The notes: a model not told the origin generated them from the letters alone. A DNA stretch of 64,000 nucleotides from Candidatus Poribacteria bacterium (GCA_965214095.1 OZ243938.1:2976001-3040000), one strand, 5' to 3'; positions 40,001 to 58,495 are shown, counted from the first letter of the stretch. Numbers and translations are program-made.

Positions 40001-43000
40001 CGCTAATAGAACTGTCCTGTCCGTTAAGTGAAGTGAGCGTTTCCATCTCTGTAATGGTAATAGTGTCACCCGATGATTTATTGAGGGCATCTTCTATTTT
40101 AGTGCGGAGATTGCTATCAGGGATATTGATACCTGAGGCTATTGATTCTTGTGTTCTATCTCCGATTTGTTCTATCTGCCAAGCATCGTTCTCAACGGCT
40201 TTTGCCTCGAATCGGTAGGTCTTACCGTTGACAGTTGAAATGACACTCATTGAATCGTTAGTAGATATTCTATTTACAACCGTGGCAAGCCAATCCGGTA
40301 ATCCCGGGATGTTCCATTGAGACCTACCATCAGCGATCACAGAGAAAACAGCGTCTGTGTCTGGGTAAGTGCAGCTTTCACCGAGAGTGAGAATATCACC
40401 GACCTTACATACACCTTTGTTGACGAGAACAATTGGGATAACCTCACTGATAACCTCTATAGGCAGATCTGCCGATTTGACAAGGGTATAACCGATATGA
40501 TTTCCAGGTTGACTTCGTAATGTGCCGATATTGACTGTGGTAGCATAGGTCGCACCGGGTGTGCGGGTAACGGTAAGCACTTCGCTTTCCATGCTACCTG
40601 CAGGTATTGTTAGGGTTGTTGCACCACCGCTAATGCTGCCATCGGTAACGCTAATCGGCAGCACCATCTTAAACGGTGCCCCCGTGGATACCACTGCCTT
40701 GAACTGCCCATCCACAACTTTTTCTAATGTGACAGTAAGAGGTAAAGGATCAACAGGGTTTTTATGGATATAGACCGTTGTCAGCAATGACAGACCAGAA
40801 AAGAGACCTTCTGGAATACTCGTCAACCGGTTTTCATGTAAATTTAATACCTTCAACGAAGACAATTCTGAGAACGCACCATTAGCTATACTCGTAATTT
40901 GGTTACGATATAAGGTGATATTATTCAAGTTGGACAGACCCGAAAATGTCTCCGCATCTATGGATGTTATCTGGTTCTGATGTAGGAAGAGACTCGTCAA
41001 CGATGGTAGACTGATAAAGACCTTCGCAGGTAGACTCGTTAATCGGTTGCCATCCAACCGCAGAGATTTCAGTGGGGGCAGACCAGATAAATCGTCCGAC
41101 ACTAAGGAGCTAATCTGGTTTCCATGTAGACTAAGTTCTTCTAACGAGGACAACTGAGAGAATGTATCCCCATCTAACGTCGTAAACTGATTAGCATACA
41201 GATTGAGATGTTTCAGAGCCGGTAGATCAGAAAAGATGTTAGCATCAAAGGTCGTAAACTGGTTGTTTTGCAGTTCAAATGATGTCAGTGACGACAGACC
41301 TTTAAAAACACCTGTTTCAAGTGAGTTTAACTGATTCGAACCAATAGAAAGTGACGTTAGTGATGATAAATCGGAAAATACGCCTTTAGGCAGAGCTGTT
41401 AACCGGTTGTTTGTTAGACTGAGGTAATCAAGTGCTATCAAACCATCAAAGTCGCCCTCTTTCAGTTTTGTGATATTCACACTACTAATGCTCAATCGAA
41501 CAATACCAGCAAGATGTGCTGCGGTTACATCGCTGGCAGAATTCACACTCGGCACCGCCGCAACAATTGCATCACGCACCTGCGGTGTGCGTTCGCTGAC
41601 GGGAGTGCTACCATCAGGAACAAGAATCGGCAGATCAGTAGATTTGACGAGTGCATATCCACTGTGATTTGATGGTAGGCTCGGTAATGTCCCGATATTG
41701 ACGGTAACAGCACCCGTTGTGCCGGGTATGGGCGTTACAGTAAGCACTTCACTTTCCACACTGCCTGCGGGGATCGTGATCGTTGTTACACCACCACTGA
41801 TGATCCCGCTAACGTTAAGTGGTAGGACAATATGAAAAGGTGCCCCCGTGGGTGCCACTGCTTTGAACTGACCATCTGCAACTTTTTGTAACGAAACAAG
41901 AAGAGGCAAAGGGTCAATATCCGAATTCGTAAAACTGAGTAAACTAAGCGATGTCAGCCCTACCAAGATTCCGTTTGGCAAAGAAGTCAATTTGTTGTTA
42001 TATAGATTAAGCTCCTCCAAATTAATGAGATTACCAAAGACACCATCGGGCAAAGAACTTATTTCGTTGCTAGGCAACCAAAGGTCTCTCAACATTGTAA
42101 GATTGTCAAAAATACCAGATGGTAAAGAACTTATCTTATTACGATTTAAATCAAGGCGTTCCAGCTTTGTAAGATTATCGAAAATACCAGATGGCAAGGA
42201 GTGAAAAGAACTACTATCCTCCATATGAAGCGCTGTTAATGCTACGAGATTGTCAAAAATATCATCTGGCAAAGAACGTAAATTGGAACCTTGCAGATTA
42301 AGGCGTTCCAGCTTTGTAAGATTATCAAAAATACCAGATGGCAAAGAACTGTAGTTGTTGAAATCTATTCCAAGGTCTCTCAGCTTTGTAAGATTTTCAA
42401 AGATATCAACTGGGAAAGAACTAATCTTGTTCTGAGCCAGACTAAGCGATGTCAGCGCAGTGAGATCGTCAAAGATATCATCTGGTAAAGAACTTATCTC
42501 GTTGTGAACCAGACTAAGCGATGTTAGCGCAGTGAGATTGTCAAAGTCGCCTTCACCTAGTGCTGTGATGTTCTCATAACTTATAGATAACCGAGTAATA
42601 CCAGCAAGGTGTTCTTCAGTAACATCTGCAGCAGAATTCACACCTGGCACCGCTGCGACGATAGCATCACGCACCTGCGGTGTGCGGTCACTCACAGAAA
42701 GGAATACGCTACCACCCAGTTCTGGGAACGCGAGCGGTAGATCAACGGATTTGACAAGGGAATAACCGGTATGATTTGCTGGTAGACTTGGTAATGTGCC
42801 GATATTGACTGTGGTAGTATCGGTTGCACCGGGGGTGCGGGTCACGGTAAGCACTTCACTTTCCACACTGCCTGTAGGTATTGTTAGGGTTGTTGCACCA
42901 CCCCTAATCCTGGCATCGGTAACACTCAGCGGCACCACAATATCAAAAGGCGCACCCGCGGATGCGACTGCTTTGAACTCTCCATCCAATACCTTCTCCA

Positions 43001-45605
43001 ATAATACAGTAAGCGGTATCGGGTTGACAGTGTTACGTTCCAAGCGAAGTGTTGTCAGCGACGACAACCCAGAGAAGATACCCGCGGGTAAGCTGCTCAA
43101 CGTACCAGAAGACAAGTCAAGAAACGTTAACGATGATAGACTGGAAAAGATACCATCTGGCAGGTAGGTGGGTTTAAGACCTGCCATGCTGAGACTCGTC
43201 AACGATGTCAACTGATCAAACACGTCAACTGGTAGGGAAGAGAGATTATAAATACGGTTCAAGTTGAGACTTTCCAACGATGTCAAATTGTCAAACACAC
43301 CATCTGGCAGGGAGGTCATGTCGTTTTGAGCAAGGTTAAGGAGTGTCAATGATGTTAAGTTGTCAAATACACCATCTGGTAGAGAGGTAAAAGTATTAGC
43401 AGGGGAAGCAGCATCCAAAATAAGTGTATTTAGCTGGGTCAACTGGTCAAAAGCTCCAGCAGGGATGGAAGTAATTCGGTGGAAACCTAAATTTAGACTC
43501 TTCAATGAGGTGAGACTAAGGACTGCTTCAGGGACTGAAGTAAGTCGTGTGTTGTAAAGACTGACACTTTCCAGCGTGTTTAGCCCATCAAAGATGCCGT
43601 CTGGTAGACTGACACCATTCCACCTGTCTATCTCAAGTATTCTCAGTGCGGTCAACCCCGAGAAATCTCCTATCTGAAGGTTAAGAGGTCCTTGTGTCTC
43701 AATCCCTGGGAGGTTAACTCTGAGAGTAGTAATTGCTGCAAGGTGTGCTTCGGTAACATCGTCAGCAGAATTCACACCCGGCACCGCTGCGACGATAGCA
43801 TCGCGCACCTGTGGCGTGCGTCCACCGAGTAAGCTTGGAATTGTGATATCAAGTTCTAAACTTCTACCAGCTGCCTCAATGGCTGCGACGAGCCTACGGA
43901 GCGGTCCGTAATCTGAAATAGAATTGCCAGACAGATAGAGGCTTGTCAGACTTGTCAAATCTTCAACTGCGGATACATCACTAATGGAATTATCTGACAG
44001 ATAGAGGCTTGTCAGACCCGTAAGATTATCAAATATGTCATCCGGTAACGTGGTTAACTGATTCCCAACCATACGCAGATCTGTCAACGAAGTCAGTCCA
44101 TCAAAAAGACCCGCTGGTAACGTCGTCAACTGATTGGAACCGAAGCGGAGCGTTGCCAGTGACGATAAGCCATTAAATATCCCCGGCGGTAACGTGCTTA
44201 ACTGATTTACACCGAATTGGAGCGTTGCCAGTGACGATAAGCCATTAAATATCCCCGGCGGTAACGTGCTTAACTGATTTACACCGAATTGGAGCGTTGC
44301 CAGTGACGATAAGCCATTAAATATCCCCGGCGGTAACGTGCTTAACTGATTATCATATAGGGTAAGTGTTGTTAGTGCGGTAAGTCCGCTAAAGATATCC
44401 TCTGGTAGACTCGTAAGTTGATTATCATAGAGACGCAGCTCCTCCAAACTGGTGAGGCCTTGAAAATCACCAGATTTTAGGGATGTGATGTTTCTATCAT
44501 TCAGATATAAGGTAGTAATTCCAGTAAGGTGGCTATCCGTGATTTCTGCGTAACTGGAAACATTCGGATCGTTTAGACGGACAACGGCGAGGATCGCTTC
44601 TGCTACCTGTGGTGTGCGTGCCCAGATTGGGATAAATACAGGCACTTCGGTAAATGTTAATGGCAGATCGGTAGTTTTTATGAGTGTATAGCCACTGTGA
44701 TCCTCTGGAAGCGGAGAGATACTTCCAATATCCACACTCACATTAGGTGTTTCATCACTTGTGCGGGTTACGGTAAGCACATCACTTTCCAAACTACCAG
44801 CCGGGATTGTAACCGATGTACCCCTATCCAAAATGAGACCATTTGTAAGAGTGAGTGACAATACAATATCAAAAGGTGCACCTGTTGGAATTACTGCTTT
44901 GAACTGTTCCGTTCCAACAATTTCTAATGAGACAGATAGGGACAAAGAACCATTGGTCTGACCTAAATTAACATTCCTAAGATTTGACAACCCATCAAAT
45001 ATTCCATCTGGAAGTTCTGTCAGTTGACTGTACTCCAGACGAAGAGTTACGAGATTTGACAACCCATCAAATAATCCATCTGGAAGTTCTGTCAGTTGAT
45101 TTCGATCCAGACGAAGAGTTACGAGATTTGACAATCCATCAAATATTTCATCTGGAAGTTCTGTCAGTTGATTTTGACTCAGATAAAGAGACTGGAGATT
45201 TGACAACCCACCAAATATTCCATCTGGAAGTTCTGTCAGTTGATTTTGACTCAGACCAAGAGTTATGAGATTTGACAACCCATCAAATATTTCATCTGGA
45301 AGTTCTGTCAGTTGATTACCATCCAGACCAAGATGGCGGAGATTTGACAACCCATCAAAGTCGCCCTCTTTCAGTTCTGTGATATTCTCATCAGCCACAG
45401 ACAAGGTAACAATACGAGCGAGGTGTACCTCAGTCACATTTGCAGCAGAATTCACACCTCGCACCGCTGCGACGATAGCATCGCGCACCTGCGGTGTGCG
45501 GTCACTCACAGGGGTAATGTCTGCATAACCTGTAAGATATGTTCCCAACAACATAAAAATTGTCACGAATATGGATACGATCTGACTTTTCTTTGAATTC
45601 AACAT
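34068..45605 (-). CDS. Giant secreted 3845-aa LRR/cadherin adhesin-like protein: nine capped LRR cassettes, internalin LRR, Big_1, five cadherins, Cys domain and C-terminal domain
   Basis: Signal peptide ending GYA; repeated PVSxRTPQVRDAIV cap, 24-aa LRRs and LEKVADGQFKAV domain; LDYE cadherins; NFPNPFNPETWIPY...TRKMLIRK; AAGGGAG SD. Confidence 0.92.
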   Translation of the reverse strand: MLNSKKSQIVSIFVTIFMLLGTYLTGYADITPVSDRTPQVRDAIVAAVRGVNSAANVTEVHLARIVTLSVADENITELKEGDFDGLSNLRHLGLDGNQLTELPDEIFDGLSNLITLGLSQNQLTELPDGIFGGLSNLQSLYLSQNQLTELPDEIFDGLSNLVTLRLDRNQLTELPDGLFDGLSNLVTLRLEYSQLTELPDGIFDGLSNLRNVNLGQTNGSLSLSVSLEIVGTEQFKAVIPTGAPFDIVLSLTLTNGLILDRGTSVTIPAGSLESDVLTVTRTSDETPNVSVDIGSISPLPEDHSGYTLIKTTDLPLTFTEVPVFIPIWARTPQVAEAILAVVRLNDPNVSSYAEITDSHLTGITTLYLNDRNITSLKSGDFQGLTSLEELRLYDNQLTSLPEDIFSGLTALTTLTLYDNQLSTLPPGIFNGLSSLATLQFGVNQLSTLPPGIFNGLSSLATLQFGVNQLSTLPPGIFNGLSSLATLRFGSNQLTTLPAGLFDGLTSLTDLRMVGNQLTTLPDDIFDNLTGLTSLYLSDNSISDVSAVEDLTSLTSLYLSGNSISDYGPLRRLVAAIEAAGRSLELDITIPSLLGGRTPQVRDAIVAAVPGVNSADDVTEAHLAAITTLRVNLPGIETQGPLNLQIGDFSGLTALRILEIDRWNGVSLPDGIFDGLNTLESVSLYNTRLTSVPEAVLSLTSLKSLNLGFHRITSIPAGAFDQLTQLNTLILDAASPANTFTSLPDGVFDNLTSLTLLNLAQNDMTSLPDGVFDNLTSLESLNLNRIYNLSSLPVDVFDQLTSLTSLSMAGLKPTYLPDGIFSSLSSLTFLDLSSGTLSSLPAGIFSGLSSLTTLRLERNTVNPIPLTVLLEKVLDGEFKAVASAGAPFDIVVPLSVTDARIRGGATTLTIPTGSVESEVLTVTRTPGATDTTTVNIGTLPSLPANHTGYSLVKSVDLPLAFPELGGSVFLSVSDRTPQVRDAIVAAVPGVNSAADVTEEHLAGITRLSISYENITALGEGDFDNLTALTSLSLVHNEISSLPDDIFDDLTALTSLSLAQNKISSFPVDIFENLTKLRDLGIDFNNYSSLPSGIFDNLTKLERLNLQGSNLRSLPDDIFDNLVALTALHMEDSSSFHSLPSGIFDNLTKLERLDLNRNKISSLPSGIFDNLTMLRDLWLPSNEISSLPDGVFGNLINLEELNLYNNKLTSLPNGILVGLTSLSLLSFTNSDIDPLPLLVSLQKVADGQFKAVAPTGAPFHIVLPLNVSGIISGGVTTITIPAGSVESEVLTVTPIPGTTGAVTVNIGTLPSLPSNHSGYALVKSTDLPILVPDGSTPVSERTPQVRDAIVAAVPSVNSASDVTAAHLAGIVRLSISSVNITKLKEGDFDGLIALDYLSLTNNRLTALPKGVFSDLSSLTSLSIGSNQLNSLETGVFKGLSSLTSFELQNNQFTTFDANIFSDLPALKHLNLYANQFTTLDGDTFSQLSSLEELSLHGNQISSLVSDDLSGLPPLKSLRLDGNRLTSLPAKVFISLPSLTSLFLHQNQITSIDAETFSGLSNLNNITLYRNQITSIANGAFSELSSLKVLNLHENRLTSIPEGLFSGLSLLTTVYIHKNPVDPLPLTVTLEKVVDGQFKAVVSTGAPFKMVLPISVTDGSISGGATTLTIPAGSMESEVLTVTRTPGATYATTVNIGTLRSQPGNHIGYTLVKSADLPIEVISEVIPIVLVNKGVCKVGDILTLGESCTYPDTDAVFSVIADGRSQWNIPGLPDWLATVVNRISTNDSMSVISTVNGKTYRFEAKAVENDAWQIEQIGDRTQESIASGINIPDSNLRTKIEDALNKSSGDTITITEMETLTSLNGQDSSISDLTGLETATNLTTLKLGNNAIVDISALANLTKLTELQLWDNQITTLSDLSGLTNLTTLYLWGNTVSDISDLSGLISLMQLRLGENSITNIGTVSNLTNLTQLYLNENTITDISAITGLTNLTELRIGSNTISDITPVQNLTNLEWLDMPNNQISNISAVQNLTSLVELYFQNNSVSDLSPLVGNTGLGESTEIDIRGNPLNYPSIYTHIPALQAKDVYIDFDNRVATTPVKISGDTQSGETGATLTQPFIVEVKDSGSVIFAGVPVTFAITAGGGTLSATNTTTDANGRAQTTLTLGDTAGTNTVSVSVPGVTQTITFTATATAPVVVYITPVGDRTSQVAQAILGVVRLDYPNVSTYAEITATHIASPTALYLNNKNITTLKSGDFDGLTGLEDLRLNNNQLTSLPSGIFSGLTALINLNLFNNQLSSLPDGIFEGLTSLTTIRLARNTVDPLPVTVSLEKVAEGQFKAVVPTGATFDFVLPITVSNGSITGDASSLTIPQGSTESETLTVTRTAGTTADVTIDIGTLPSLPRNHFGYALVKPDDLPLAVITSINTAPVFTDGTAITRTVTENTVATTNIGTPIAATDTENDTLTYTLSGTDASAFDIDSSTGQLKTKTTLDYETKNTYTVTITVSDGSLTDTITVTINITDIDEAVVVDPPTTNVAPTFTDGESTTRVVSENTAAGTNIGNPVNATDANNDTLTYSLGGIDAASFDVDSTTGQLKTEASLDYESKRVYSVTITAADDELSDTTTVIISVIDVNDTVLSSGFVPVADRTAQVRDAIVDAVPNVTDAATVTESQVAAITSLNLRSKGILSLKTGDFSGMIALTDLNLFRNQLSELPPGIFDGLTALSTLRLGDNVVDPLPLFVSLQSVGTGQFKAVITTGAPFSMVLPITVTDGSISSGITSVTIPQGRAESTSFTVIGTAAKVSFGTFPSIPQGHFGYTLTQFTVCNRTTEVADAIAAAVGVSDCSDVTEVDLATITRLDLSGSAITSLQTGDFDGMVSLRTLYLENNELTSLPNNIFDDLVSLTFLSLNENKLTTLPSGIFSKLTSLTHLDIFDNDLNSLPSSVFTGLSALTSLSLKNNELTYLPGDIFSGLSSLTSLSLSNNKLTSLTAGIFEGLTQLSQLHLSLNPNANTLLTLRISLQKVGTNSVKAVVPSGAPFTMTIPVQIENGVLAGGATTMTIPIGAVESQPLTITRTAGTVAAVTVDIGTALPRLPSNHNGYNLLKSRTLPLEVLPPLNSPPVFTEGASTTRTILENTAIGTNIGDAITATDVNTADTLTYTLSGTDAAAFDIDSTTGQLTTKVALDYETKNAYSVTLTVSDSIATGTIAVTINISNVNEAPVFAADSLTTHTVAENTVAGTNIGTAYSATDVDGDTLTYSLSGQDAAAFGIDTETGQLKTSAALDYETKTIYSVTITVSDGKLNTSITVTINVTNVDELPIDPEEVEEVSTNNAPVFTDGETATRTVVENTSSSVDIGLAVSATDADNDTLTYTLDGTDASAFDIDSSTGQLKTKAALDYETKTTYTVTITASDGSLTATIEVTINVTDVAEVVTSEDGTSTDTDTDENGESVTDTDTNNEPASTVGFTPVSERTSVIRDIIVRAAGVESAGDVTETHLASIKSLSYSGHSQPSLSTLKIGDFDGLTGLTALSMSDHSLSSLPDGIFDDLTSLTTLTLRGFWSNTPLSSLPTGVFDNLTKLTYLNIGYNSLSSLPDGIFDNLAELIEFWMFNNQVSSLPDGIFDNCTSLTALRLGGNGLSSLQADVFDNLSALSFLTLGSNSLSSLPEGIFDNLSALTSLFLHANGIVSFPDGIFDNLSALTYLNVYNNPIEDFEQLRRLKANNPGIEIFGVRIPEEDDNGAPALPAVPSETTLLANFPNPFNPETWIPYQLSTDADVTLTIYNMRGVVVRQLKLGQKAAGVYTSRSRAIHWNGRNQIGEKVAAGVYFYTLKAGDFTATRKMLIRK
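44090..44360. repeat. 72-bp coding tandem repeat with near-identical LRR units
   Basis: GGAGCGTTGCCAGTGACGATAAGCCATTAAATATCCCCGGCGGTAACGTGCTTAACTGATT three times at 72-bp period. Confidence 0.9.
44981..45360. repeat. 72-bp coding tandem repeat with ~48-bp constant and ~24-bp variable parts
   Basis: Units start GATTTGACAA at 44981, 45053, 45125, 45197, 45269 and 45341. Confidence 0.9.
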
Positions 45606-47259: not shown

Positions 47260-50200
47260 AATTAATTACACACGACGGTAGGTTTGGTTTCCTAACCGAA
47301 CCGGTGTTTGTTCAGTCTCATAGTCAGGCAGAATGCGCCAAATCAACGGTATGAATCATGGAGCATGCTACACGCGCATGCTTCATTAGGCATTCTGCAT
47401 TGGTTCGGAAACCGCATCTACCGGGGAGTGTGCACGTGTTTTTACATTTCACTATAATTCAAAAGTTTACTATAATCACAATCCAATTAGAAGGAGACAT
47501 TTGAGCGATGTTCAACCCATCTTCAAACGGTGAGACAATACACCAAAGTATGAGCGAATAAACATCAACAATCCAGTTATCATAAGGTCTTATGATACTA
47601 TTTCCGTATCAACATCTTGCGGGTAGCAGTAAAATCACCTGCATTGAAAGTGACAAAATAGACACCTGTGGCGACTTTCTCTCCGATGCTGTTTCTTCCA
47701 TCCCAATGTGCTGCGTGTTGTTGACTCGTGTAGAAACCTGCTTTCTGCTGTCCTAATGCTAATGTCCGAACGACAACACCACGCATATTATAGATTGTCA
47801 ATCTGACATCGGCAGGTTTAGACAACTGATACGGTATCCACGTTTCCGGGTTAAACGGATTGGGAAAGTTGGATAGGAGCAAGGTTTTTTCTGGTACTTG
47901 TTGGATGTTGACGGGAGCTTGACTAACAGCAGGTATCACTATAAGAGGCGGATCTGGATCGACAATGCGGATTTCATATCCGCGGTTATACAAACTGACT
48001 GGATTTAGTGTCAAAACAAGGTCTACTCTAACAGCATCCGTCGTGCCTTCAGTGCGTATCACGTTAATAATTTTGCTCTGATTTTCACCCGCTGTCATCC
48101 GTAAATCGGGGACGGAGCTATAACTACCTGATGTTCCTGTAATCTGATTAGGATCTATTACACCGTTAATAACAGTGACGAATGAGTGAAACGTAGCTGG
48201 TACACCGATAGGACATATCGCGCGGAATTGACCGTCTGCAACTTTTTCCAGAGACACACGGATATCCATAGCTTTATAACCAGCACCTTGGTCACCACAT
48301 TCAAAACTGGATAGTTTTGTGAGACCAACCAACAAACCATCTGGCAATGAACTTAGGTTGTTATTGTCTATATATAGATTAGTCACTTCAGTTAAATTAC
48401 TAAAGATATCAGATGGCAACGAAGAAATATCATTATATGCAACGTCGACTTTTGTCAATTTGGTATTTTCGTCAAATAGACCACTTGGCAATGTAGTCAA
48501 CTTGTTAGCACTGATATCTATTGATGTGAGTTCTGTAAGTTCGTCAAATTCGTCTCCATCCAACGAAGTTAAGTCGATGGCAGATACTGCAAGCGACTGA
48601 AGTTTGGTGAGTTGGTCGAAAATATCATCAGGCAAAGTTGAGATTCCATTACGCGCTATCACCAGATAGGTTAGTTCTGTGAGATTATCAAAAACACCAT
48701 CAGGCAAGGTTGTTATATTATTTACACTTAAATCAAGTCCTTCCAGTGCTGTGAGATTATCAAAAACACCATCAGGTAAGGAATTCAATTCGTTCCGATT
48801 AAATAGAATTTTCTTCAGTGCTGTGTTATTGTCAAAAATACCGTCAGGTAAAGAAGTTATCAAGTTGTTATATATTTGTAATTCTTCCAGAGATGTTAGT
48901 CCATCAAATACCCCAGCAGGTAGGGAAGTCAATCGGTTTGTGCTAAAACTCCTATCATCGTATAGATAGAGTCTTTTCAAAGATGAGAGATTATCAAAAA
49001 TACTTTCAGGCAAAGTTGTGAGTTCTGTGAGACCGAGGTTAAGTTCCTCAAGAGCAGATAGACTGTCAAAAACATCTGATGGTATTGTAGTGAACTTGTT
49101 TGCGAAAAGGTCCAGTTTTATCAATCCTGTGAGTCCATCAAAATCACCTGATAGAAGTGCGGATTGCGTTCCACTTAACACACCAGGAATCTCAAGGTCA
49201 GTTATTGCGGTAAGGTGTGCAGCTGTTACATTTGCAGGATCGCTGACACCCGGAACCTTACCCACAATTGCATCGCGTACTCTCGGTGTGCGTTCATCCA
49301 CAGGTGTGTCCGGAATATCTTCGTTTACATCCGTAATAGTGATTGTGACAGTGATTGTCGCACTATTATTACTTGCACCACTGTCATCCGTCACCTTGAC
49401 AGTCACAGAATACGTACTCTTTTCTTCATAATCCAATGCAGCACTAGTTTGCAGCTGCCCTGATGTGGTGACAATACTGAATGAGGACGCATCCGTGCCT
49501 TCAAGACTATAGGTCAATGTGTCACCTGTATCAGCATCTGTTGCAGCGACGGCGGTCCCGATGTTTTCACCGGACGCGGTATTTTCTGCGATAGAACGGT
49601 CGGTGCTGGCACCATCAGTAAACACAGGCGTGTTGTTTTGGTTTTGCCGTGAAATGCGTGTGACAAGGATTGTCCCAGATATTTCAGCAGTGCCACCATT
49701 CCCGTCTGATGCGATTACGTTTATTGAATACGACGAACTGGTATGATCAATAAGCGTTTGCGTGACTTGGATCTTTCCTGTGGACGTATTTATGGTAAAA
49801 TAAGAGGCATCCGTTCCACCCAGACTATAGGTCAATGTGTCCTCATCAGGATCCGTCGCGGTTACAGCGGTACCGATCGTATCACCGACCGAAGCAGACG
49901 CAATATCTGCTATGCGATAGTTAAAACTATTTGCTGAAAATGTTGGTGCACGGTTCTCATCTACGTCTGTGATGTTAATCGTGACGGTGATAGTGGTGGC
50001 ATCATTACTTGCACCACTGTCATCTGTTGCTGTGACGGTTACTGTGTAGGAAGTCTTTGTTTCATAGTTCAGTGCTGCCTTCGTTTTCAACTGACCTGAA
50101 GTAGTAACGATGCTGAAGGATGCAGCATCTGTGCCAGCGAGGCTATAGGTCAAGGTATCATTGGTATCCTGGTCTGTGGCAGTAACAGCATTTCCGATGT

Positions 50201-50569
50201 TGGTATTAGCAACGGTATTCTCAGCGATGGCACGTGTGGTTGAAGCCCCCTCTGAGAACACAGGTGCATCGTTTGCGTCTGTGACGTTAATCGTCACTGT
50301 GATAGAATCTGTGGCATTATCTGGGTCTGAAGCAAATACCGAGATGGAATATGAACTTTTCGTCTCATAATCCAGTGCTGCCTTTGTTTTCAACTGGCCT
50401 GTGCCACTCTCAATACTAAACGATGCAGCATCTGTGCCACCGATACCATAAGTCAAAGTATCATCGTCTGCGTCAGTTGCTGTGATAGCATCGCCGATGT
50501 TCTGAGCAGCGGCTGTATTCTCAGCGATGGATCGGGTCGTGCTTGCATCTGTGAAGACTGGCGCACGAT

Positions 50570-51800
50570 TTTCATCCACGTCCGTAACATTGATTGTCAC
50601 AGCGATAGAAGCTCTACCACCATTTCCATCAGAAACAGAGACTGTCACGGAATATGATGTCTTTGCTTCATAGTTCAATGCTGCTTTTGTGCGTATTTGA
50701 CCTGTTGTGCTATCAATGTCAAAGGAAGCTGCATCTGTGCCAGTCAGACTATAAGTCAGTGTGTCGCCAGTGTCCGGGTCTGTTGCAGAGACAGCACTGC
50801 CAATATCAACACCAGAACCCGTATTTTCGGCTACGGAGCGGGTAGCACTATTTGCAGAAAACGTAGGAGCACGGTTCTCATCTACATCCGTAACATTGAT
50901 TGTCACAGTGATAGAGGCACTACCACCATTCCCATCGGAAACAGAGACGGTAACTGAGTATGAATTCTTATCTTCATAATCCAGTGCTACTTTTGTTCGT
51001 ATTTGCCCTGTTGCGCTGTTAATGTCAAAAGAGGCAGCATCTGTGCCAGTCAGTCTATAAGTCAGTGTATCGCCAGTGTCCGGGTCTGTTGCGGAAACAG
51101 CACTGCCAATATCAACACCAGACCCCGTATTTTCTGCTACAGACAGAGTTGCACTATTTGCAGAAAACGTAGGAGCACGGTTCTCATCTACATCCGTAAC
51201 ATTGATTGTCACCGCGATAGAGGCACTACCACCGTTTCCATCAGAAACAGAGACTGACACAGAATATGATGTCTTTGTTTCATAATCCAATGCTGCTTTT
51301 GTTCGTATTTGCCCTGTTGCGCTGTTAATGTCAAAAGAGGCAGCATCTGTGCCAGTCAGTCCATAAGTCAGTGTATCGCTAGTGTCCGGGTCTGTTGCGG
51401 AAACAGCACTGCCAATATCAACACCAGAACCCGTATTTTCGGCTATAGACCGGGTGGCACTATTCGCAGAAAACGTAGGGGCGCGGTTCTCATCCACGTT
51501 CGTAACATTGATTGTCACAGCGATAGAGGCACTACCACCATTTCCATCAGAAACGGTGACTGACACAGCATAAGAATTATCATCTTCATAATCCAATGCT
51601 GCTTTTGTGCGCAACTGACCTGTTGTGCTAACAATACTGAAAGATGCGGCATCTGTGCCAGTCAGTCTATAAGTTAGGGTATCGTCAGTGTCCGGGTCTG
51701 TTGCTGAAACGGCATCGCCGATGTCTACACCCTGTCCAGTATTCTCGGCGATGGAACGGGATGTGGTTTCACTATCATCAAAGGTTGGTGCGCGGTTCTC
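50570..51800. repeat. 306-bp coding tandem repeat of near-identical cadherin domains (~4 units)
   Basis: DENRAPTFSANSAT...GSASIAVTINVT recurs; shadow ORFs at 50697, 51003 and 51309 show the 306-bp period. Confidence 0.85.
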
Positions 51801-54800
51801 ATCTACATCTGTCACATTGATTGTGATGGTGATCTCGTCCTCAAGAGTGCCATCAGACACTTTGACCTTGACTTCATAACGAGCTTTTGTTTCATAGTCA
51901 ATAGCAGCCTTCGTTTTTAGCTGCCCACTTGTGCTAACAATATCAAACGATGCAGCATCCGTCCCACTCAGGTTATAAGTGAATGTGGTATCAGCATCTG
52001 GATCCGCAGCGGTAACTGCTGTGCCAATGTTCGCACCTGCAGCAGTATTCTCGGCAACGCTACGTGTGGCGTTTTCACCTTCCGCGAAAACAGGTGCTTC
52101 ATTGACGTTGGTTATGTTCACCGTGACAGTGATAGTATCACTCAAACTACCATCAGATACGGTGACTGTAACTGTATAGGTGGACTTAGATTCGAAGTTG
52201 AGGACTGTACTGGTTTTTAGCTGCCCAGTTTCACCATCAATACTAAATGCTGATGCACCTGTTCCACTCAGTAGATATGCGAGTGTATTTGTATCTGCAT
52301 CAGTGGCACTGATCGGTGTGCCAATGTTGACACCAGTTGCTGTATTTTCTGCGACAGTCCGTGTTGCGGTTGCCCCCTCTGTGAACACAGGTGCGATGTT
52401 TGAAGGTGTTTCGTCTAAATTTCTGACAGTGATAGTTACGGTAATACTATCACTTCCATTGTTTCCATCTGATACACCTATTGTGACTGTATAGGAGGCT
52501 TTCGTTTCATAATCAAGCGCAGCTTTTGTTTTTAACTGTCCCGTCGTAGATTCAATGTCAAACGAAGCAGCATTTGTGCCGGTAAGGGAGTACGTCAATG
52601 TATCACCATCAACGTCTGTTGCAGCAACAGCACTGCCAATATTTATACCCGCACTAACGTTTTCTGCGATGGTGCGGGTAGTGCTTGCACCATCTGTGAA
52701 CACAGGTGCTTCATTGACGTTGGTAACGTTTATCGTAACAGCGATACTATCACTGCCACCGTTCTCATCAGAAACATTGACTGTTACTGTATAACTCGAT
52801 TTCGTTTCATAATTCAGAGCAGCTTTTGTTTTCAATTGTCCCGAAGAAGTATCAATACTAAAGGAAGCAGCATCTGTGCCAGTCAGACTATAGGTGAGTG
52901 TATCGTTGTCCGCATCCGTTGCAGACACAGCATTCCCAATATTTGTTCCTGATGCTGTATTTTCAGCGACCGTGAGGGTTGTTGTATTACCCTGTGTAAA
53001 GATAGGAGCGTTGTTTGTAGGTGACTCGTCAACATCAGTTACATTGATTGTGACGGTGATGGAGGCACTGCCATCCACACCATCAGACACGGAAATCGTG
53101 ACCGTATAGGTGGATTTAGTTTCATAATCTAATGCTGCATCTGTTCGAAGCTGACCTGAAGTGCTATCAATCGTAAACGATGCTGCATCTGTGCCTTCAA
53201 GACTATAAGTCAATGTGTCATTATCAGCATCCGTCGCAGATACAGCATCCCCGATATCTAAACCTGTGCCAGTATTTTCTGCGACTGAACGTGTTGTGCT
53301 GCTGCCATCTGAAAAGACAGGAGCGTTATTGGCAGGACTCTCATCTACGTTTGTTATGTTAATGGTTACCGTGATGCTATCGCTGCCTTCATTTCCATCA
53401 GAGACAGTAATTGTTACGGAATAGGAGGCTTTCGTTTCATAATCAAGCGCAGCACTTGTGCGTAACTGACCTGAACTACTGTTTATGCTAAAGGAGGAAG
53501 CATCTGTTCCACCGATACCATAAGTTAAGGTATCATCATCTGCATCTGTTGCAGAGATAGGATTTCCAATGTCAACACCAGAACCCGTGTTCTCAGCAAC
53601 AGAACGTGCGGCACTTTCGCCTTCTGTGAACACTGGCGCAGTATTGGTAGAACTCTCATCAACATCGGTAATATTTATAGTGACAATAATAGTGTCGCTA
53701 CCTCCATTTCCATCAGAGACCGTGAGTCTTACCGAATAGGAGTCTTTCGTTTCATAATCAAGCGCAGCACTTGTGCGTAACTGACCTGAACTACTGTTTA
53801 TGCTAAAGGAGGAAGCATCTGTTCCACCGATACCATAAGTCAAGGTATCATTATCTGCATCTGTCGCAGAGATAGGATTTCCAATGTCAACACCAGAACC
53901 CGTGTTCTCAGCAACAGAACGTGTGGCACTTTTGCCTTCTGTGAACACTGGCGCAGTATTGGTAGAACTCTCATCAACATCGGTAATATTTATAGTGACA
54001 ATAATAGTATCACTACCTTCATTTTCGTCAGTGACCGTGAGTCTTACTGAATAGGAAGTTTTCGTTTCATAATCAAGCGCAGCACTCGTCCGCAACTGAC
54101 CTGAACTGCTGTCTATGCTGAAGAAGGAAGCATCTGCGCCAGTCAGACTATAGGTCAAGGTATCCTTGTCAGCATCTGTCGCAACAACAGGATTCCCTAT
54201 GTTGACACCAGAACCCGTATTCTCCGCAACGGAACGTGTTGCGCTACTCCCGTTTGTAAATACAGGTGCACTATTCGCTGTTTCTGGAACAACACCTGTA
54301 GACGTTTCATCTATGTCCGTAACATTTATGGTGATACTTATGCTGTCGCTATACTCACCATCGGAAACAGTAATTGTTACTGTGTAGGAGGATTTGGTTT
54401 CATAATCCAACGCTGCTTTTGTTCTCAACTGTCCAGATGTGCTGACAATACTGAATGCAGACGCATCTGCACCTTCAAGGCTATAGGTCAAGGTATCGTC
54501 ATCAGCATCTGTCGCTGCCACAGCACTGCCAATATCAACTTCTGCACTGGTATTTTCTGCTACAATTCGTGTAGCACTCTCACCTTCGGTAAACACGGGT
54601 GCGCGGTTATCTACGACATCCGTGATATTGATTGTAATGTTGATAGTATCCGTAAGCTTTCCATCAGATACTGTTATCATGACCGCATAAGTCGCCTTCG
54701 TTTCATAGTCAAGAGCAGCTTTCGTTTTTATCTGTCCGTTTGTGGTATCAATGTCAAAGGAAGCAGCATCCGTTCCTGTAAGACTGTAGGTTAATGTGTC

Positions 54801-54863
54801 CCCATCAGCATCTGTCGCTGATATCGGACTCCCAATACCAACATCAGAACTGGTGTTTTCACT

Positions 54864-55863
54864 GAACTCATATTGAGTAAAACATAATAATGCTATATAA
54901 TAGGGAAACACAAGAGTTTATTTATGTCCTATTCTTTCACTTCATATATCTATAACTTATTGAAAGGTGTTGTTATGGCAGACAAGGTTCAAGAGCCCCT
55001 CAGATACAATGGTATTCCGAAGCAGGTTTCACGTAAGGATTTTAATCGTTATATCAAACCTCATCTAAAGAAACGCATAAAAGGTCCCAAACCGAAACTG
55101 TCTTTCTATAAGATATTCAACTATATCCTCTATGTTTTACATACCGGTATTCAATGGGATCAACTCCGCACACGGCGTAATGAACTCCATTGGTCTAACG
55201 TCTATAAATGGCATAATCGTTGGTCAAAAGATGGTTCTTATGAGAAACTTTTTGAAGCATCTGTCATACATCTTCATGATAGTGATCAACTTGACACCTC
55301 TTGTTTACATGGTGATGGTTCAAACACTGTTGTAAAAAAAGGGGTGACACCATAGGGTATTCAGGTCATAAACATCAAAAAGGTGAAAAAGAGGTGGCTA
55401 TCACCGACAATAAAGGTTTTATCATTGGTCCAATAACCCTCAAACCAGTGAACCAACATGATACAACGATTTTGCCCGAGGCATTGACCGAACTCATCTC
55501 CTTCAGCAATCGGATTGGCATGGCACTTGATGGTTCCGCGCTAACGCTGGATTCTGGTTTTGATTCCAAGGTGAATCATAAGATTATTAAAGAACAAGGA
55601 CTGATCCCAGTGATCTACCCTAACAAACGAAACACTAAAGAACCTATCGCTATCGCTCGCAAGTTCCGGTGGTTTAGAAAAGATATATACAAAGACCGGT
55701 ATAAAGTAGAGCGAACTTTCGGGTGGCAAGATACTTACCGAAGACTCGTTCTAAGTTATGATAAACTCAAAGAAACACGTTTAGGTTTTCGTAATTTAGC
55801 ATATTCAATGATAAATTTTCGAGCAACTTTCAACGATGCTTAGATGTTACTCGCTATGAGTTC
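54864..55863 (+). mobile_element. IS5-family insertion sequence, 1000 bp
   Basis: Imperfect TIR GAACTCATA(TT/GC)GAGTAA; 3-bp TSD ACT at 54861-54863 and 55864-55866; DDE transposase inside. Confidence 0.92.
54924..55843 (+). CDS. IS5-family DDE transposase in two ORFs joined by a probable programmed -1 frameshift at A AAA AAA G (55334-55341); start probably ATG 54975
   Basis: ILYVLHTGIQW, YKWHNRWSKDG, HGDGS; the -1 frame continues GDTIGYSGHKHQKGEK, NQHD, LDSGFD, RYKVERTFGW. Confidence 0.88.
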
Positions 55864-58495
55864 ACTTACAGTTCGAGTCGTACTGCTTCCTTCTGTGAAT
55901 ACAGGAGCACGGTTTTCTGATACATCGGTTACATTGATCGTAACCGCGATAGAATCGCTGCCGTCTTTGCCATCGGAAACAGAAACATTTCCTGAATATG
56001 TAGTTTTGGTTTCATAGTCAAGAGCAGCTTTCGTTTTTATCTGTCCGTTTGTGGTATCAATGTCGAACGAAGCAGCATCCGTTCCTGTAAGACTGTAGAT
56101 TAATGTGTCCCCATTAGCATCTGTTGCGGCTATAGCACTTCCAATATTGATACCCGCTGCTGTGTTTTCTGCGATGGAGCGAGAGGCGGTCTCACCCTCC
56201 GTGAACACAGGTGCGACATTCAAGGCTTTGAATATTTCCAACGGTGTCTGGTTCGTTTTATCAAGTGCGTATCCAGTATGACCTGTCGGTAGACTCGGCA
56301 CACTGTCGATACTCACGGTGACAGCACCGAAGGTGTTGGGTGTGCGAGTGACAGTATGGAGCTGACTCATAACACTGCCTTTGGCAATGCTGATAGCAGT
56401 GAGGTTATTACTTAGACTGCCATTTGCTACGGTGATAGGCAGCGAAATATCATAAGGTGCACCTGTCGGGAAGACCACTTGAATCATGTTATCGCCAACC
56501 TTCTGCAGTGTTAGAGATAACAACAATGGGTCAGTTGTGTTGCCACTCAAGTTGAGTGTTGTCAACGATGTCAGACCTTGAAAGATGCCATCAGGTAGGT
56601 CTTCTAATTGGTTATTGCTTAGGTTCAGAGTTGTGAGAGATAATAAGTCTGTGAAATCACCTGTATTGAGGGATACAATGGACATACCACTCAAATCCAA
56701 CGCAGTGATAGTTGCAAGTTGGACCTCTGTCACGTTGTTACAATCACTTACACCGGAAACTGCGGCAGCGATTGCATCGGCAACTTGTTGGGAGCGATTA
56801 CAGACTGTCGACTTGGCGAGGATATAGCCAAAATGATTCGTAGGCAGGGACGGTAATGCACCTAAACGGACATCTGTCGTTGTAGCAGTAAAGGCATCAC
56901 TTTCAAGACTTCCTTTTGATATTGTAATCGTTGTTATACTTGCGTCATTGAGTGGCACCACAATATCAAACGGCGCACCTGCGGGGATAATCACCTTAAA
57001 CTGATTTTCTGCGATCTGTTGCAATGAAACCATCAGTGGCATCGGATCAAGCAGATTTCCACCTAGACGGAGCGATGTGAGCGAAGTAAGTCCTTTAAAG
57101 ATACCGACTGGTAGTCCATTCAGCATATTACCGTATAGGTTAAGGTTCGTGAGAGCTGTCAGCCCACCAAAATCACCCGTTTTGAGTTCCGTAATATCAA
57201 CATTACGTAGATTAAGACTGGTAATGGCTGCGAGGTGGGTATCGGTTACATCTTCGGCAGCATCTACACCAGGGATTGCTGCCACGATAGCATCACGGAC
57301 TGCAGCAGTGCGATCACTGACAGCAAGTGATGTTATATCCGTCGTGGTGTCACTGGCATCAATGACATTTACAATCACAGTAATCGTATCTGTCAGTTCA
57401 CCATCAGAAACAGTGATTGAAACGCTATACAAGTGCTTCGTTTCATAATCTAAATCCGATTTTGTTTTCAGTTGTCCATTAGAAGAATCAATCTCAAATG
57501 AATTCGCATCAATACCACTGAGTGTGTATGTCAAGGTATCTTCGTCTGTATCCGTAGCGGAAACGGCACTGCCGATGTTTGTATTTGCTACCGTGTTTTC
57601 TACGACTGCGCGGGTAGTAATGCTACCATCACTGAAAACGGGTGCAGCGTTTACGGTAGGATCGGTAACTCCAGTCATTTCGGTTGGGTCGGTAACTTCA
57701 GTCATTTCGGTAGGGTCAGGATTCTCAGTAGAACTTTCAGCACCGATTATTTCAAGTGGTAACGACCCTGGTTTTGTCAAGGTATATCCGTAGTGATTTG
57801 CGGGCGAACTTGGCAACGAGCCGATATTTGCAGTAACCGCATTGGTCGTATTCGCAGTGCGCGAAACCGAAACCGCATCGCTTGCTGTGCTGCCTTTAGA
57901 GACGGTGAGTGTAGTAACATTCTCTGCAAGGGTGCCGTTTGCAACAGTCACAGGTACGACTATAGAGAAAGGTGCGCCGGTCGGCACAACTGCCTTGAAT
58001 TGATTTTCTTCAACCTTTTCAAGCGTTACGGATATCTGCATCGGGTCAACGGTGTTGCTTCCCAATCGAAGTGTTGTTAACGCTGTGAGTCCTTCAAATA
58101 TACCATCGGGGAGACTGCTTAGTTCATTGTCGTATAAATTCAGACTTGTTAATCCTGTCATCCCAGAAAAATCACCAGTTTTAAGAACGGTAATACCTTT
58201 TTCTCTCAGATTGAGAGCAGTAATTGCTGCAAGGTGTGTTTCTGTTACATCCGTAGCAGCGTTGACACCTGCCGCGGTGACGATAGCATCCCGCACTTGA
58301 GTTGTCCGCTCATTCACTGGCGTGACATCCGCAATACCTGTAAGGTTTGTGCTAAGAAGTATGAGAAGCACGACTAAAATGAGTAAGGTGTTGTTGTTAT
58401 ATAAAGCTAAACGATTTTTCACGGTAATAAATGTCCTTTCATATTTGTGTTTCTGATGGGTAGCAGGAGACAACCCACCCGCCAAGTGGGTATTG

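What the first reader, a model, noticed from the sequence alone, without database searches (positions are those of the whole stretch)
44981..45360. LRR array with constant framework DNA and hypervariable concave-face codons
Seen: five full 72-bp units share ~48 nearly invariant bp, even at synonymous sites, while the x codons of LxxLxLxxN differ by multi-base non-synonymous changes. Coding strand: CGC CAT/GGT/GAT GGT; ATA ACT/GGT/AGT CAA; CAG TCT/TAT/AGT CAA; GTA ACT/CGT/GAT CGA; GTA ACT/CGT/GAG TAC. The Leu codons (CTC, CTT, CTG) never change, and variants are shared in patches between units. The second and third variable codons always end in T. Inference: strong diversifying selection with micro-gene-conversion, or targeted mutagenesis. 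This is the N-terminal-most cassette. Compare the three near-identical units at 44090-44360.
Basis: partly seen in the sequence, partly recalled or inferred. Interest (0 to 1): 0.75.

Follow-up and report, generated by a model that had tools for sequence, protein, structure and literature searches.

The report
Young LRR repeats with fast-evolving binding face
Five recently copied leucine-rich repeats at the start of a giant surface protein of a sponge-symbiont-type bacterium have changed almost only at the residues that face the ligand. This is the familiar result of repeat duplication plus selection for new binding surfaces, not a programmed mutator.

Summary
Five 72-bp units (window 44988-45347, minus strand) share 54 of 72 invariant columns. 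Of the 18 variable columns, 13 fall in the 15 bases of the five x codons of LxxLxLxxN (P=1e-8).

The array is the first LRR module of a 3845-aa secreted LRR/cadherin protein.

The targeted-mutagenesis (DGR) reading fails:
- No reverse transcriptase in the 94%-complete genome.
- No template copy.
- 14 adenine columns never vary.
- No donor cassettes for the variable blocks.

Evidence for descent from one unit, with amino-acid-changing substitutions favoured:
- The x codons show no silent differences: 41 of 50 comparisons change the residue, 9 are identical, 0 are synonymous.
- Their third bases are partly retained by descent.
- The Leu codons embedded among them are fixed.
- 5 of 15 informative site pairs fail the four-gamete test, which fits exchange between units.

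The same pattern recurs in 14 other arrays of this genome and in 8 of 32 arrays in relatives, including other phyla.

Verdict: a clear but ordinary case of repeat amplification with diversifying selection. Population polymorphism could not be tested because only contigs were available. This scan has noted the same pattern before on other DNA.

The parts
34068..45605 (-). Gene for a 3845-aa secreted or surface protein. It has many cap-LRR-beta-sandwich modules, one LRR_4 (22-residue) block, cadherin repeats and a C-terminal sorting-type domain.
   Evidence: ORF. Pfam: LRR_8 875 bits, Cadherin 190.8 bits, FlgD_ig 31.7 bits (cut-off 27), Por_Secre_tail 20.8 bits (below its cut-off of 27).
45516..45605 (-). 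Probable Sec signal peptide (MLNSKKSQIVSIFVTIFMLLGTYLTGYA/D).
   Evidence: Read from the translation: basic start, hydrophobic stretch, small residues before D. This is an inference; no predictor was run.
45348..45515 (-). N-terminal cap of the module (RTPQVRDAIVAAV...), repeated before each LRR array of this gene family.
   Evidence: Repeated motif visible in the translation. No Pfam family: best hit E=0.043, below its cut-off. One helix predicted, at low confidence.
44988..45347 (-). The five full 72-bp LRR units, at 45276-45347, 45204-45275, 45132-45203, 45060-45131 and 44988-45059. Codons 4, 5, 7, 9 and 10 of each unit are hypervariable; the rest is near-identical DNA.
   Evidence: The AlphaFold model places a beta-strand on unit residues 5-7 of units 1-4, and a longer strand from residue 5 in unit 5, with block-mean pLDDT of 72-92 over most of the array.
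44916..44987 (-). Sixth, degenerate unit (SNLRNVNLGQTNGSLSLSVSLEIV) that closes the solenoid and runs into the next domain.
44604..44957 (-). Post-LRR all-beta (Ig-like sandwich) domain, present after each typical (24-residue) LRR array of the family.
   Evidence: Alignment of 20 copies. AlphaFold model pLDDT 84.1 with nine strands. No Pfam family. Foldseek finds only weak generic beta-sandwich matches: none at E<=0.001, best 4jx0_A at 1.4e-3.
44116..44351 (-). Second module's array of three near-identical 72-bp units, two of them identical. It shows the earliest stage of the same process.
   Evidence: TRF 3.3 copies, 95% matches. Units printed. One pair has 0 framework and 0 x differences.
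34077..34337 (-). C-terminal sorting-type domain (…FPNPFNPETWIPYQL…), shared with the neighbouring giant gene 47598-54911.
   Evidence: Pfam residues 3757-3843. The same motif ends both translations.

Best explanation
The array is the ligand-binding solenoid of the first module of a giant secreted adhesin-like protein. Five 24-residue LRR units arose recently from one ancestral unit by tandem duplication or unequal crossing-over, and they still exchange short stretches with each other. Their scaffold DNA has therefore had almost no time to drift.

Each unit places residues 5-7 on a beta-strand (shown by the model). From general LRR knowledge, unit residues 4, 5, 7, 9 and 10 are the x positions of LxxLxLxxN, which are exposed on the concave face and its beta-turn (inferred). 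Selection for new or broader binding has fixed amino-acid-changing point substitutions at just these codons, so each turn of the solenoid now shows a different surface.

No dedicated mutator is involved. The ligand is unknown. Given the organism type, it is probably a host (sponge) or matrix molecule; that is an inference.
For: Shown:
- The variable columns cluster in the x codons (13 of 18, P=1.1e-8) and evolve 15 times faster per column.
- Framework pS is 0.028, while x-codon pN is 0.618.
- Every differing x-codon comparison changes the residue: 41 of 50, with 9 identical and 0 synonymous.
- In old unit pairs of the same genome, 573 of 1110 same-residue x comparisons use different codons. 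Shared x codons in this array are therefore identical by descent.
- Single-step x differences are 0 of 13 synonymous against 29% expected (P=0.012). Pooled with the other young arrays they are 4 of 38 against 26% expected (P=0.02).
- The third bases of x codons 5 and 7 are T in all five units. For independent units the chance is 0.0054 and 0.023. Pairwise differences at x-codon positions 1/2/3 are 0.72/0.54/0.36, against 0.63/0.62/0.67 in old pairs. The x codons thus descend from common codons and changed mainly where a change alters the residue.
- Leu codons 3, 6 and 8, which sit between the x codons, are fixed.
- Stages of the process are visible: identical duplicate units at 44116-44351, and in a relative a pair with 0 framework differences and 2 of 15 x bases changed.
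- The pattern is general. 14 other arrays of this genome have unit pairs with under 10% framework difference, and 104 of their 145 x-codon comparisons change the residue. 8 of 32 arrays in relatives show it, each with its own framework.
- Unit residues 5-7 form the beta-strand in the model. The x positions of LxxLxLxxN are the five solvent-exposed beta-strand/beta-turn residues (PMC3138743, passages read).
Against: - Unit pairs are not independent, so the P values overstate significance. The own array rests on only five codons.
- Across the genome, x divergence is about 0.5 whether the framework differs by 2% or by 20%. That flat relation would also arise if the framework were being homogenised while old x codons were kept.
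- x-codon third positions are still far more diverged (0.36) than framework third positions (0.021).
- The framework of this array itself has 4 non-synonymous changes to 1 synonymous, so the silent-site clock rests on a single event.
- No population or orthologue data could be obtained.
Confidence: 0.7

Rival explanations
1. Concerted evolution of an old array. On this reading the units and their x codons are old, and gene conversion or unequal crossing-over keeps overwriting the scaffold. Conversions that erase the distinct x codons are removed by selection. The x codons are then maintained, not newly evolved.
For: - x divergence stays flat at about 0.5 across framework divergence of 2-20%.
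- 5 of 15 informative column pairs are four-gamete incompatible.
- The best relative's N-terminal array (L002) and other relatives' arrays are each homogeneous around a different, array-specific framework.
Against: - The fixed Leu codons 6 and 8 are single codons wedged between x codons. Conversion tracts would have to be 3 bases long.
- The third bases of x codons 5 and 7 are identical by descent.
- x third positions are only 0.36 diverged, against 0.67 in truly old pairs.
- None of the 9 same-residue x comparisons uses a different codon, against 52% in old pairs.
- This rival overlaps with the best explanation. Both need selection on the x residues.
Confidence: 0.2
2. Programmed hypermutation. 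A diversity-generating retroelement, or another dedicated system, rewrites the x codons. The NNT codons would be the trace of AAT codons in a template.
For: - Codons 5 and 7 are NNT in 5 of 5 units, and codon 9 in 4 of 5.
- Multi-base changes within codons are common: 28 of 50 x comparisons differ at 2 or 3 bases.
- All 5 variable framework columns have A as one of their states.
Against: - 0 PF00078 matches in the own genome at 94.5% completeness, while the control rings in 3 of 14 known genomes.
- No second copy of the array above 78% identity anywhere in the 5.25 Mb.
- 14 framework columns are A in all five units.
- Codons 4 and 10 vary at all three positions.
- The site is an N-terminal LRR, not a C-terminal lectin-type or Ig-type variable region.
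- Silent changes at x codons are lacking, which unselected mutagenesis would not give.
Confidence: 0.03
3. Cassette assembly of the lamprey VLR kind. Silent donor LRR units elsewhere in the genome are copied into the expressed array.
For: Sequence similarity of the units to variable lymphocyte receptors (2o6q_A, E=4.5e-42), and the mosaic sharing of patches between units.
Against: - No other locus carries this framework.
- The variable 27-mers have no match closer than 6 mismatches outside the array, no better than 10 shuffled controls.
- SHOC-2, LGR4, chondroadherin and designed consensus LRRs match as well or better, so the likeness to VLRs is generic for 24-residue LRRs.
Confidence: 0.02

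Closest known systems
Eukaryote-like LRR/cadherin surface proteins of sponge symbionts (described for Poribacteria by single-cell genomics, PMC3909097; passages read)
   Same: LRR and cadherin Pfam domains, a signal peptide and a Por-type C-terminal sorting domain. Named relatives are Candidatus Poribacteria MAG proteins. The paper reports abundant LRR (PF12799) and cadherin genes with signal peptides and TIGR04183-type tails.
   Different: In the passages I read, the paper counts domains only. It does not describe the DNA-level pattern of young units with saturated x codons, or the cap-LRR-beta-sandwich module.
Highly internally conserved repeats of fungal NLR/NWD (HET-E) proteins: concerted evolution plus positive selection on a few surface positions (PMC4986451; passages read)
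   Same: Repeats with high internal identity, variation limited to a few positions per repeat that map to the binding surface, and exchange between repeats.
   Different: The fungal repeats are WD40, ANK or TPR in cytoplasmic receptors, and they also exchange between paralogous genes. Here the repeat is an LRR in a bacterial secreted protein, and no other locus shares the framework.
Diversifying selection on the x residues of LxxLxLxxN in plant LRR receptors and resistance genes (PMC3138743, passages read; the wider resistance-gene literature is recalled)
   Same: The same five solvent-exposed beta-strand/beta-turn positions carry the variation.
   Different: In plants the comparison is between paralogous or allelic genes. 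Here it is between tandem units inside one bacterial gene, with almost no silent divergence.
Diversity-generating retroelements
   Same: Codon-precise hypervariation in a binding protein, with NNT-type codons.
   Different: No reverse transcriptase, no template repeat, invariant adenines and a different target fold. It does not work like a DGR and is not one.
Solved 24-residue 'typical' LRR proteins: SHOC-2 (7t7a), LGR4, chondroadherin, Leptospira LIC11098/LIC10831 (4u08, 4u06), lamprey VLR (2o6q), designed consensus LRRs and repebodies
   Same: Strong sequence matches: 7t7a_A E=1.4e-60, 4u08_A 6.1e-53, 2o6q_A 4.5e-42. The framework is consensus-like.
   Different: None of them has the N-terminal cap or the post-LRR beta-sandwich of this module. 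That domain has no Pfam family and no clear solved relative.

Membership tests
Leucine-rich repeat proteins (typical 24-residue class) | Tandem LxxLxLxxNxL motif with a 20-30 residue period | tested here: met
   Five 24-residue units with SNLxxLxLxxNQL. Pfam LRR_8 scores 875 bits against a cut-off of 27.
Leucine-rich repeat proteins (typical 24-residue class) | Solenoid with one short beta-strand per repeat on the concave side | tested here: met
   AlphaFold single-sequence model: strands at model residues 64-66, 88-90, 112-114 and 136-138, which are unit residues 5-7 of units 1-4, and 160-165 in unit 5 (from its residue 5). Block-mean pLDDT is 72-92 for model residues 41-160. SHOC-2 matches at E=1.4e-60. 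Side-chain exposure was not computed.
Diversity-generating retroelement target | Reverse transcriptase gene in the genome | tested here: not met
   PF00078: 0 matches at E<=0.001 in the own genome (94.47% complete, 4 contigs). The control rings in 3 of 14 known genomes.
Diversity-generating retroelement target | Template repeat nearly identical to the variable region | tested here: not met
   blastn of the array against the whole genome gives only self hits and four hits of 67-78% identity in another LRR gene.
Diversity-generating retroelement target | Variation confined to template adenines | tested here: not met
   14 framework columns are A in all five units. Codons 4 and 10 vary at all three positions.
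VLR-type cassette assembly | Bank of donor LRR cassettes sharing short homology with the expressed gene | tested here: not met
   No other locus has the framework. The variable 27-mers have no match under 6 mismatches outside the array, the same as 10 shuffled controls.
VLR-type cassette assembly | AID/APOBEC-like cytidine deaminase | not tested
   No search was made, because the donor bank had already failed.
Internally conserved repeats under concerted evolution with positive selection (fungal NWD type) | High identity between repeats of one array | tested here: met
   TRF gives 86% matches overall. Framework differences between units are 1.8-5.3%.
Internally conserved repeats under concerted evolution with positive selection (fungal NWD type) | A few hypervariable positions per repeat, on the binding surface, with an excess of residue-changing substitutions | tested here: met
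   13 of 18 variable columns lie in 5 codons. 41 of 50 x comparisons change the residue and 0 are synonymous. The surface location is inferred.
Internally conserved repeats under concerted evolution with positive selection (fungal NWD type) | Exchange of repeats between paralogous genes, and repeat-number polymorphism in populations | tested here: inconclusive
   No paralogue shares this framework. Exchange within the array is suggested by 5 of 15 incompatible site pairs. Population data are lacking.
Eukaryote-like repeat proteins of sponge symbionts | Secreted LRR/cadherin protein encoded by a sponge-associated bacterium | tested here: inconclusive
   The domains are met. The habitat was not shown directly. 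The named relatives are Candidatus Poribacteria, Dehalococcoidia, Rhodothermales and Synechococcus MAG records. Earlier notes of this scan call the genome Poribacteria.

The most novel reading that the evidence does not exclude
Codon-precise change recurs in at least 15 arrays of this genome and in arrays of other phyla. Multi-base codon replacements sit on a scaffold with almost no silent change. This could reflect an undescribed diversification route that needs no reverse transcriptase. One form would be population-level combinatorial shuffling of LRR units, or a targeted repair process, giving these symbionts a rapidly re-tunable repertoire of host-binding surfaces. My evidence does not exclude ongoing within-population variation, because only contigs could be examined.
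Probability: 0.05. Interest if true: 0.85.

Novelty: new member of a known kind. Interest (0 to 1): 0.3.

Why it matters
The array marks, at single-codon resolution, the probable ligand-contact surface of a giant surface protein from an uncultured, symbiont-type bacterium. It also shows that this large gene family makes new binding faces by copying a repeat and then changing five residues per turn. There are 91 module matches in this genome, and 108 arrays with 602 units. That gives concrete residues to mutate or swap in binding experiments on symbiont-host recognition. As biology it is an expected evolutionary mode, already known from plant and fungal receptors, and not a new mechanism.

Tried and rejected
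- DGR reading: rejected.
- Donor cassettes or micro-conversion from elsewhere in the genome: rejected. Outside the array, the best matches of the five 27-base variable blocks have 6 mismatches (units 2, 3) or 7 (unit 4), and units 1 and 5 have none within 7. The 10 shuffled controls behave alike.
- Search for the same framework with other x codons in other samples: the 47-base IUPAC pattern found 0 stretches in metagenome contigs and 0 in genome contigs.
- Search for close orthologues or alleles for a codon-model test: none found.
  - Best in 40 relatives' genomes: 52%.
  - 4 metagenome loci at 40-56%.
  - 10 genome loci at 24-49%.
  - The 120 listed of 434 proteins are at 32-61%, with only lengths of 181-578 residues searched.
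- Read pile-up for polymorphism: 5 runs listed and 4 laid, all held as contigs.
  - None of the 41 listed differences lies in 44981-45360; 115 further rows were not shown.
  - The listed differences and joints come from paralogous modules laid at 85% likeness.
  - Contigs cannot show rare variants, so this says nothing about polymorphism.
  - Run X1 holds only a small share (0.05) and only diverged pieces.
- Single-sequence fold of the whole module: only the LRR part was confident. Residues 1-36 and 189-303 had pLDDT below 50.
- Fold search of the post-LRR domain: no match at E<=0.001. An internalin-like inter-repeat domain was considered but not shown.
- Two array-finding scripts used a wrong motif spacing and found one array. 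They were corrected and their output is not used.
- PAML-type site models were not run, because no such program is available and no orthologues were found.
- Supplementary tables of PMC3909097 could not be seen. They may list LRR gene counts.

Full report
**What is there**

The finding lies on the minus strand, inside an 11.5-kb ORF (window 34068-45605, 3845 aa).
- The protein starts with a signal-peptide-like stretch.
- It then carries many modules of the same build: a roughly 55-residue cap (RTPQVRDAIV...), an array of 24-residue LRRs, and a roughly 100-residue all-beta domain.
- It also has a block of 22-residue LRRs, cadherin repeats and a C-terminal sorting-type domain.
- Pfam scores: LRR_8 875 bits, Cadherin 191 bits, FlgD_ig 31.7 bits; Por_Secre_tail is below its cut-off.
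- Neither the cap nor the post-LRR domain has a Pfam family.
- With an alignment of 20 copies, the post-LRR domain folds confidently as a nine-strand beta domain (pLDDT 84). It has only weak, generic Ig-like matches among solved structures, none at E<=0.001.
- The array in question is the first LRR array after the signal peptide.

**Check of the observation**

- TRF reports 5.3 copies of a 72-bp unit at 44980-45359 with 86% matches.
- In coding register, the five full units read SNLxxLxLxxNQLTELPD(G/E)(I/L)F(D/G)GL.
- 54 of 72 columns are invariant.
- 13 of the 18 variable columns fall in the 15 bases of codons 4, 5, 7, 9 and 10 (P=1.1e-8).
- The minimum number of substitutions is 20 in those 15 columns against 5 in the other 57.
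- The three Leu codons embedded among the x codons never change, and codons 5 and 7 always end in T.
- Contigs from three public runs of one study reproduce both edges of the array without a difference.

**Targeted mutagenesis**

A DGR needs a reverse transcriptase, a template repeat and adenine-specific change.
- The own genome (5.25 Mb, 4 contigs, 94.5% complete) has no PF00078 match, while the same search rings in 3 of 14 control genomes.
- blastn of the array against the genome gives only self hits, plus four hits of 67-78% identity in another LRR gene.
- 14 framework columns are adenine in all five units.

A VLR-like donor bank is also absent. No 27-base variable block has a match closer than 6 mismatches outside the array, the same as shuffled controls.

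**Old or new x codons**

Two readings remain. In one, the units are young and the x codons changed fast under selection. In the other, the units are old and only the scaffold is homogenised.

- All 41 differing x-codon comparisons (of 50) change the residue. The 9 that encode the same residue use the same codon.
- In old unit pairs of this genome, 573 of 1110 same-residue x comparisons use different codons.
- Single-base x differences are 0 of 13 synonymous where 29% is expected.
- The shared third-base T of codons 5 and 7 has a chance of 0.0054 and 0.023 under independence.
- x-codon third positions differ in 36% of comparisons, against 67% in old pairs.
- The single Leu codons wedged between x codons are fixed. 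Conversion tracts cannot explain this unless they are 3 bases long.

Evidence for the second reading:
- Genome-wide, x divergence is about 0.5 whether the framework differs by 2% or by 20%.
- 5 of 15 informative column pairs fail the four-gamete test.

I conclude that the units amplified recently, still exchange with each other, and have residue-changing substitutions favoured at the x codons. The pairs are not independent and the array has only five x codons, so the P values are indicative only.

**Generality**

- A scan of the genome finds 108 arrays with 602 units.
- Within-array pairs whose framework differs by less than 5% (15 pairs, 10 of them from this array) differ at 52% of x-codon bases.
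- The 24 pairs with 5-10% framework difference differ at 50% of x-codon bases.
- One pair, in the neighbouring array at 44116-44351, is identical.
- Fourteen other arrays contribute 29 young pairs. In these, 104 of 145 x comparisons change the residue, 37 are the same codon and 4 are synonymous. Their framework shows 49 synonymous among 101 single-step differences, meaning purifying selection.
- In loci from relatives, 8 of 32 arrays show young pairs of the same kind, each around its own framework. These include the best relative's N-terminal array (L002) and two Dehalococcoidia MAG loci.
- L002 has a pair with no framework difference and 2 of 15 x bases changed, which is an early stage of the process.

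**Where the variable residues sit**

- A single-sequence AlphaFold model is confident for the LRR part (block-mean pLDDT of 72-92 over model residues 41-160). It puts a strand on unit residues 5-7 in units 1-4, and a longer strand from residue 5 in unit 5.
[quoted passage not shown] This region usually forms the ligand site (PMC3138743, passages).
- I did not compute exposure from coordinates.

**Organism and relatives**

- The module family is greatly expanded here: 91 matches in the own genome, and 36 of 41 genomes searched have a match.
- No relative is closer than about 50-60% protein identity.
- Named relatives are MAG records labelled Candidatus Poribacteria, Dehalococcoidia, Rhodothermales and Synechococcus.
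- Earlier notes of this scan call this genome Poribacteria. I did not test that independently beyond these names.
- Poribacterial genomes are reported to be rich in LRR and cadherin genes with signal peptides and Por-type tails (PMC3909097, passages).

**Comparison with what is known**

- The pattern matches the [quoted passage not shown] described for fungal NLR/NWD proteins (PMC4986451, passages).
- It also matches diversifying selection on LRR x residues in plant receptors.
- This scan has reported the same pattern on other DNA: phage, giant-virus and Dehalococcoidia LRR genes. Those are unchecked AI notes.
- It is therefore a new example of a known kind.

**What stays open**

- Population polymorphism could not be tested, because the runs are held as contigs only.
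- Orthologue dN/dS could not be tested, because there is no close relative.
- The ligand is unknown.

Noticed in passing
window 44604-44957 (and 9 further copies in the window): A conserved all-beta domain of about 100 residues follows the typical (24-residue) LRR arrays. Its consensus reads ...PLPLxVSLxKVGxGQFKAVxPTGAPF...H-GY. It has no Pfam family and no clear solved relative.
   Followed up: partly
L017-L024; P0085: The whole cap-LRR-beta-sandwich module occurs at 39-49% identity in MAG records labelled Dehalococcoidia and Rhodothermales as well as Candidatus Poribacteria. A related LRR protein is labelled Synechococcus. This suggests the module is shared across phyla, possibly by transfer between co-resident symbionts.
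   Followed up: no
window 50563-51714 and 53378-54238: The neighbouring giant gene (47598-54911, 2437 aa) holds young tandem cadherin-repeat arrays. One has period 306 with 3.8 copies at 87% matches; the other has period 315 with 2.7 copies at 90%. Repeat amplification here is thus not limited to LRRs.
   Followed up: no
window 44116-44351: Two of the three units are identical over 72 bases. The third differs at x codons 7 and 10 and at four framework residues. This looks like a fresh duplication caught before divergence.
   Followed up: partly
G000 C1:4758605-4759781 (outside the window): Two 66-bp LRR arrays about 760 bp apart look like a duplicated whole module. Corresponding units differ mainly at x positions. 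This pair could serve for a positional-orthologue test of selection.
   Followed up: no
window 6621-11513, 22145-27442, 27526-30693, 55840-58485, 58496-64000: The window is a cluster of very large same-strand ORFs of 881-1834 aa, in addition to the two giants. At least three of them carry the same post-LRR domain or module.
   Followed up: no
L004 (G020:C1:4267909-4271775): The strand opposite the LRR gene match contains a 358-aa open frame that looks transposase-like from its sequence. It was not searched.
   Followed up: no
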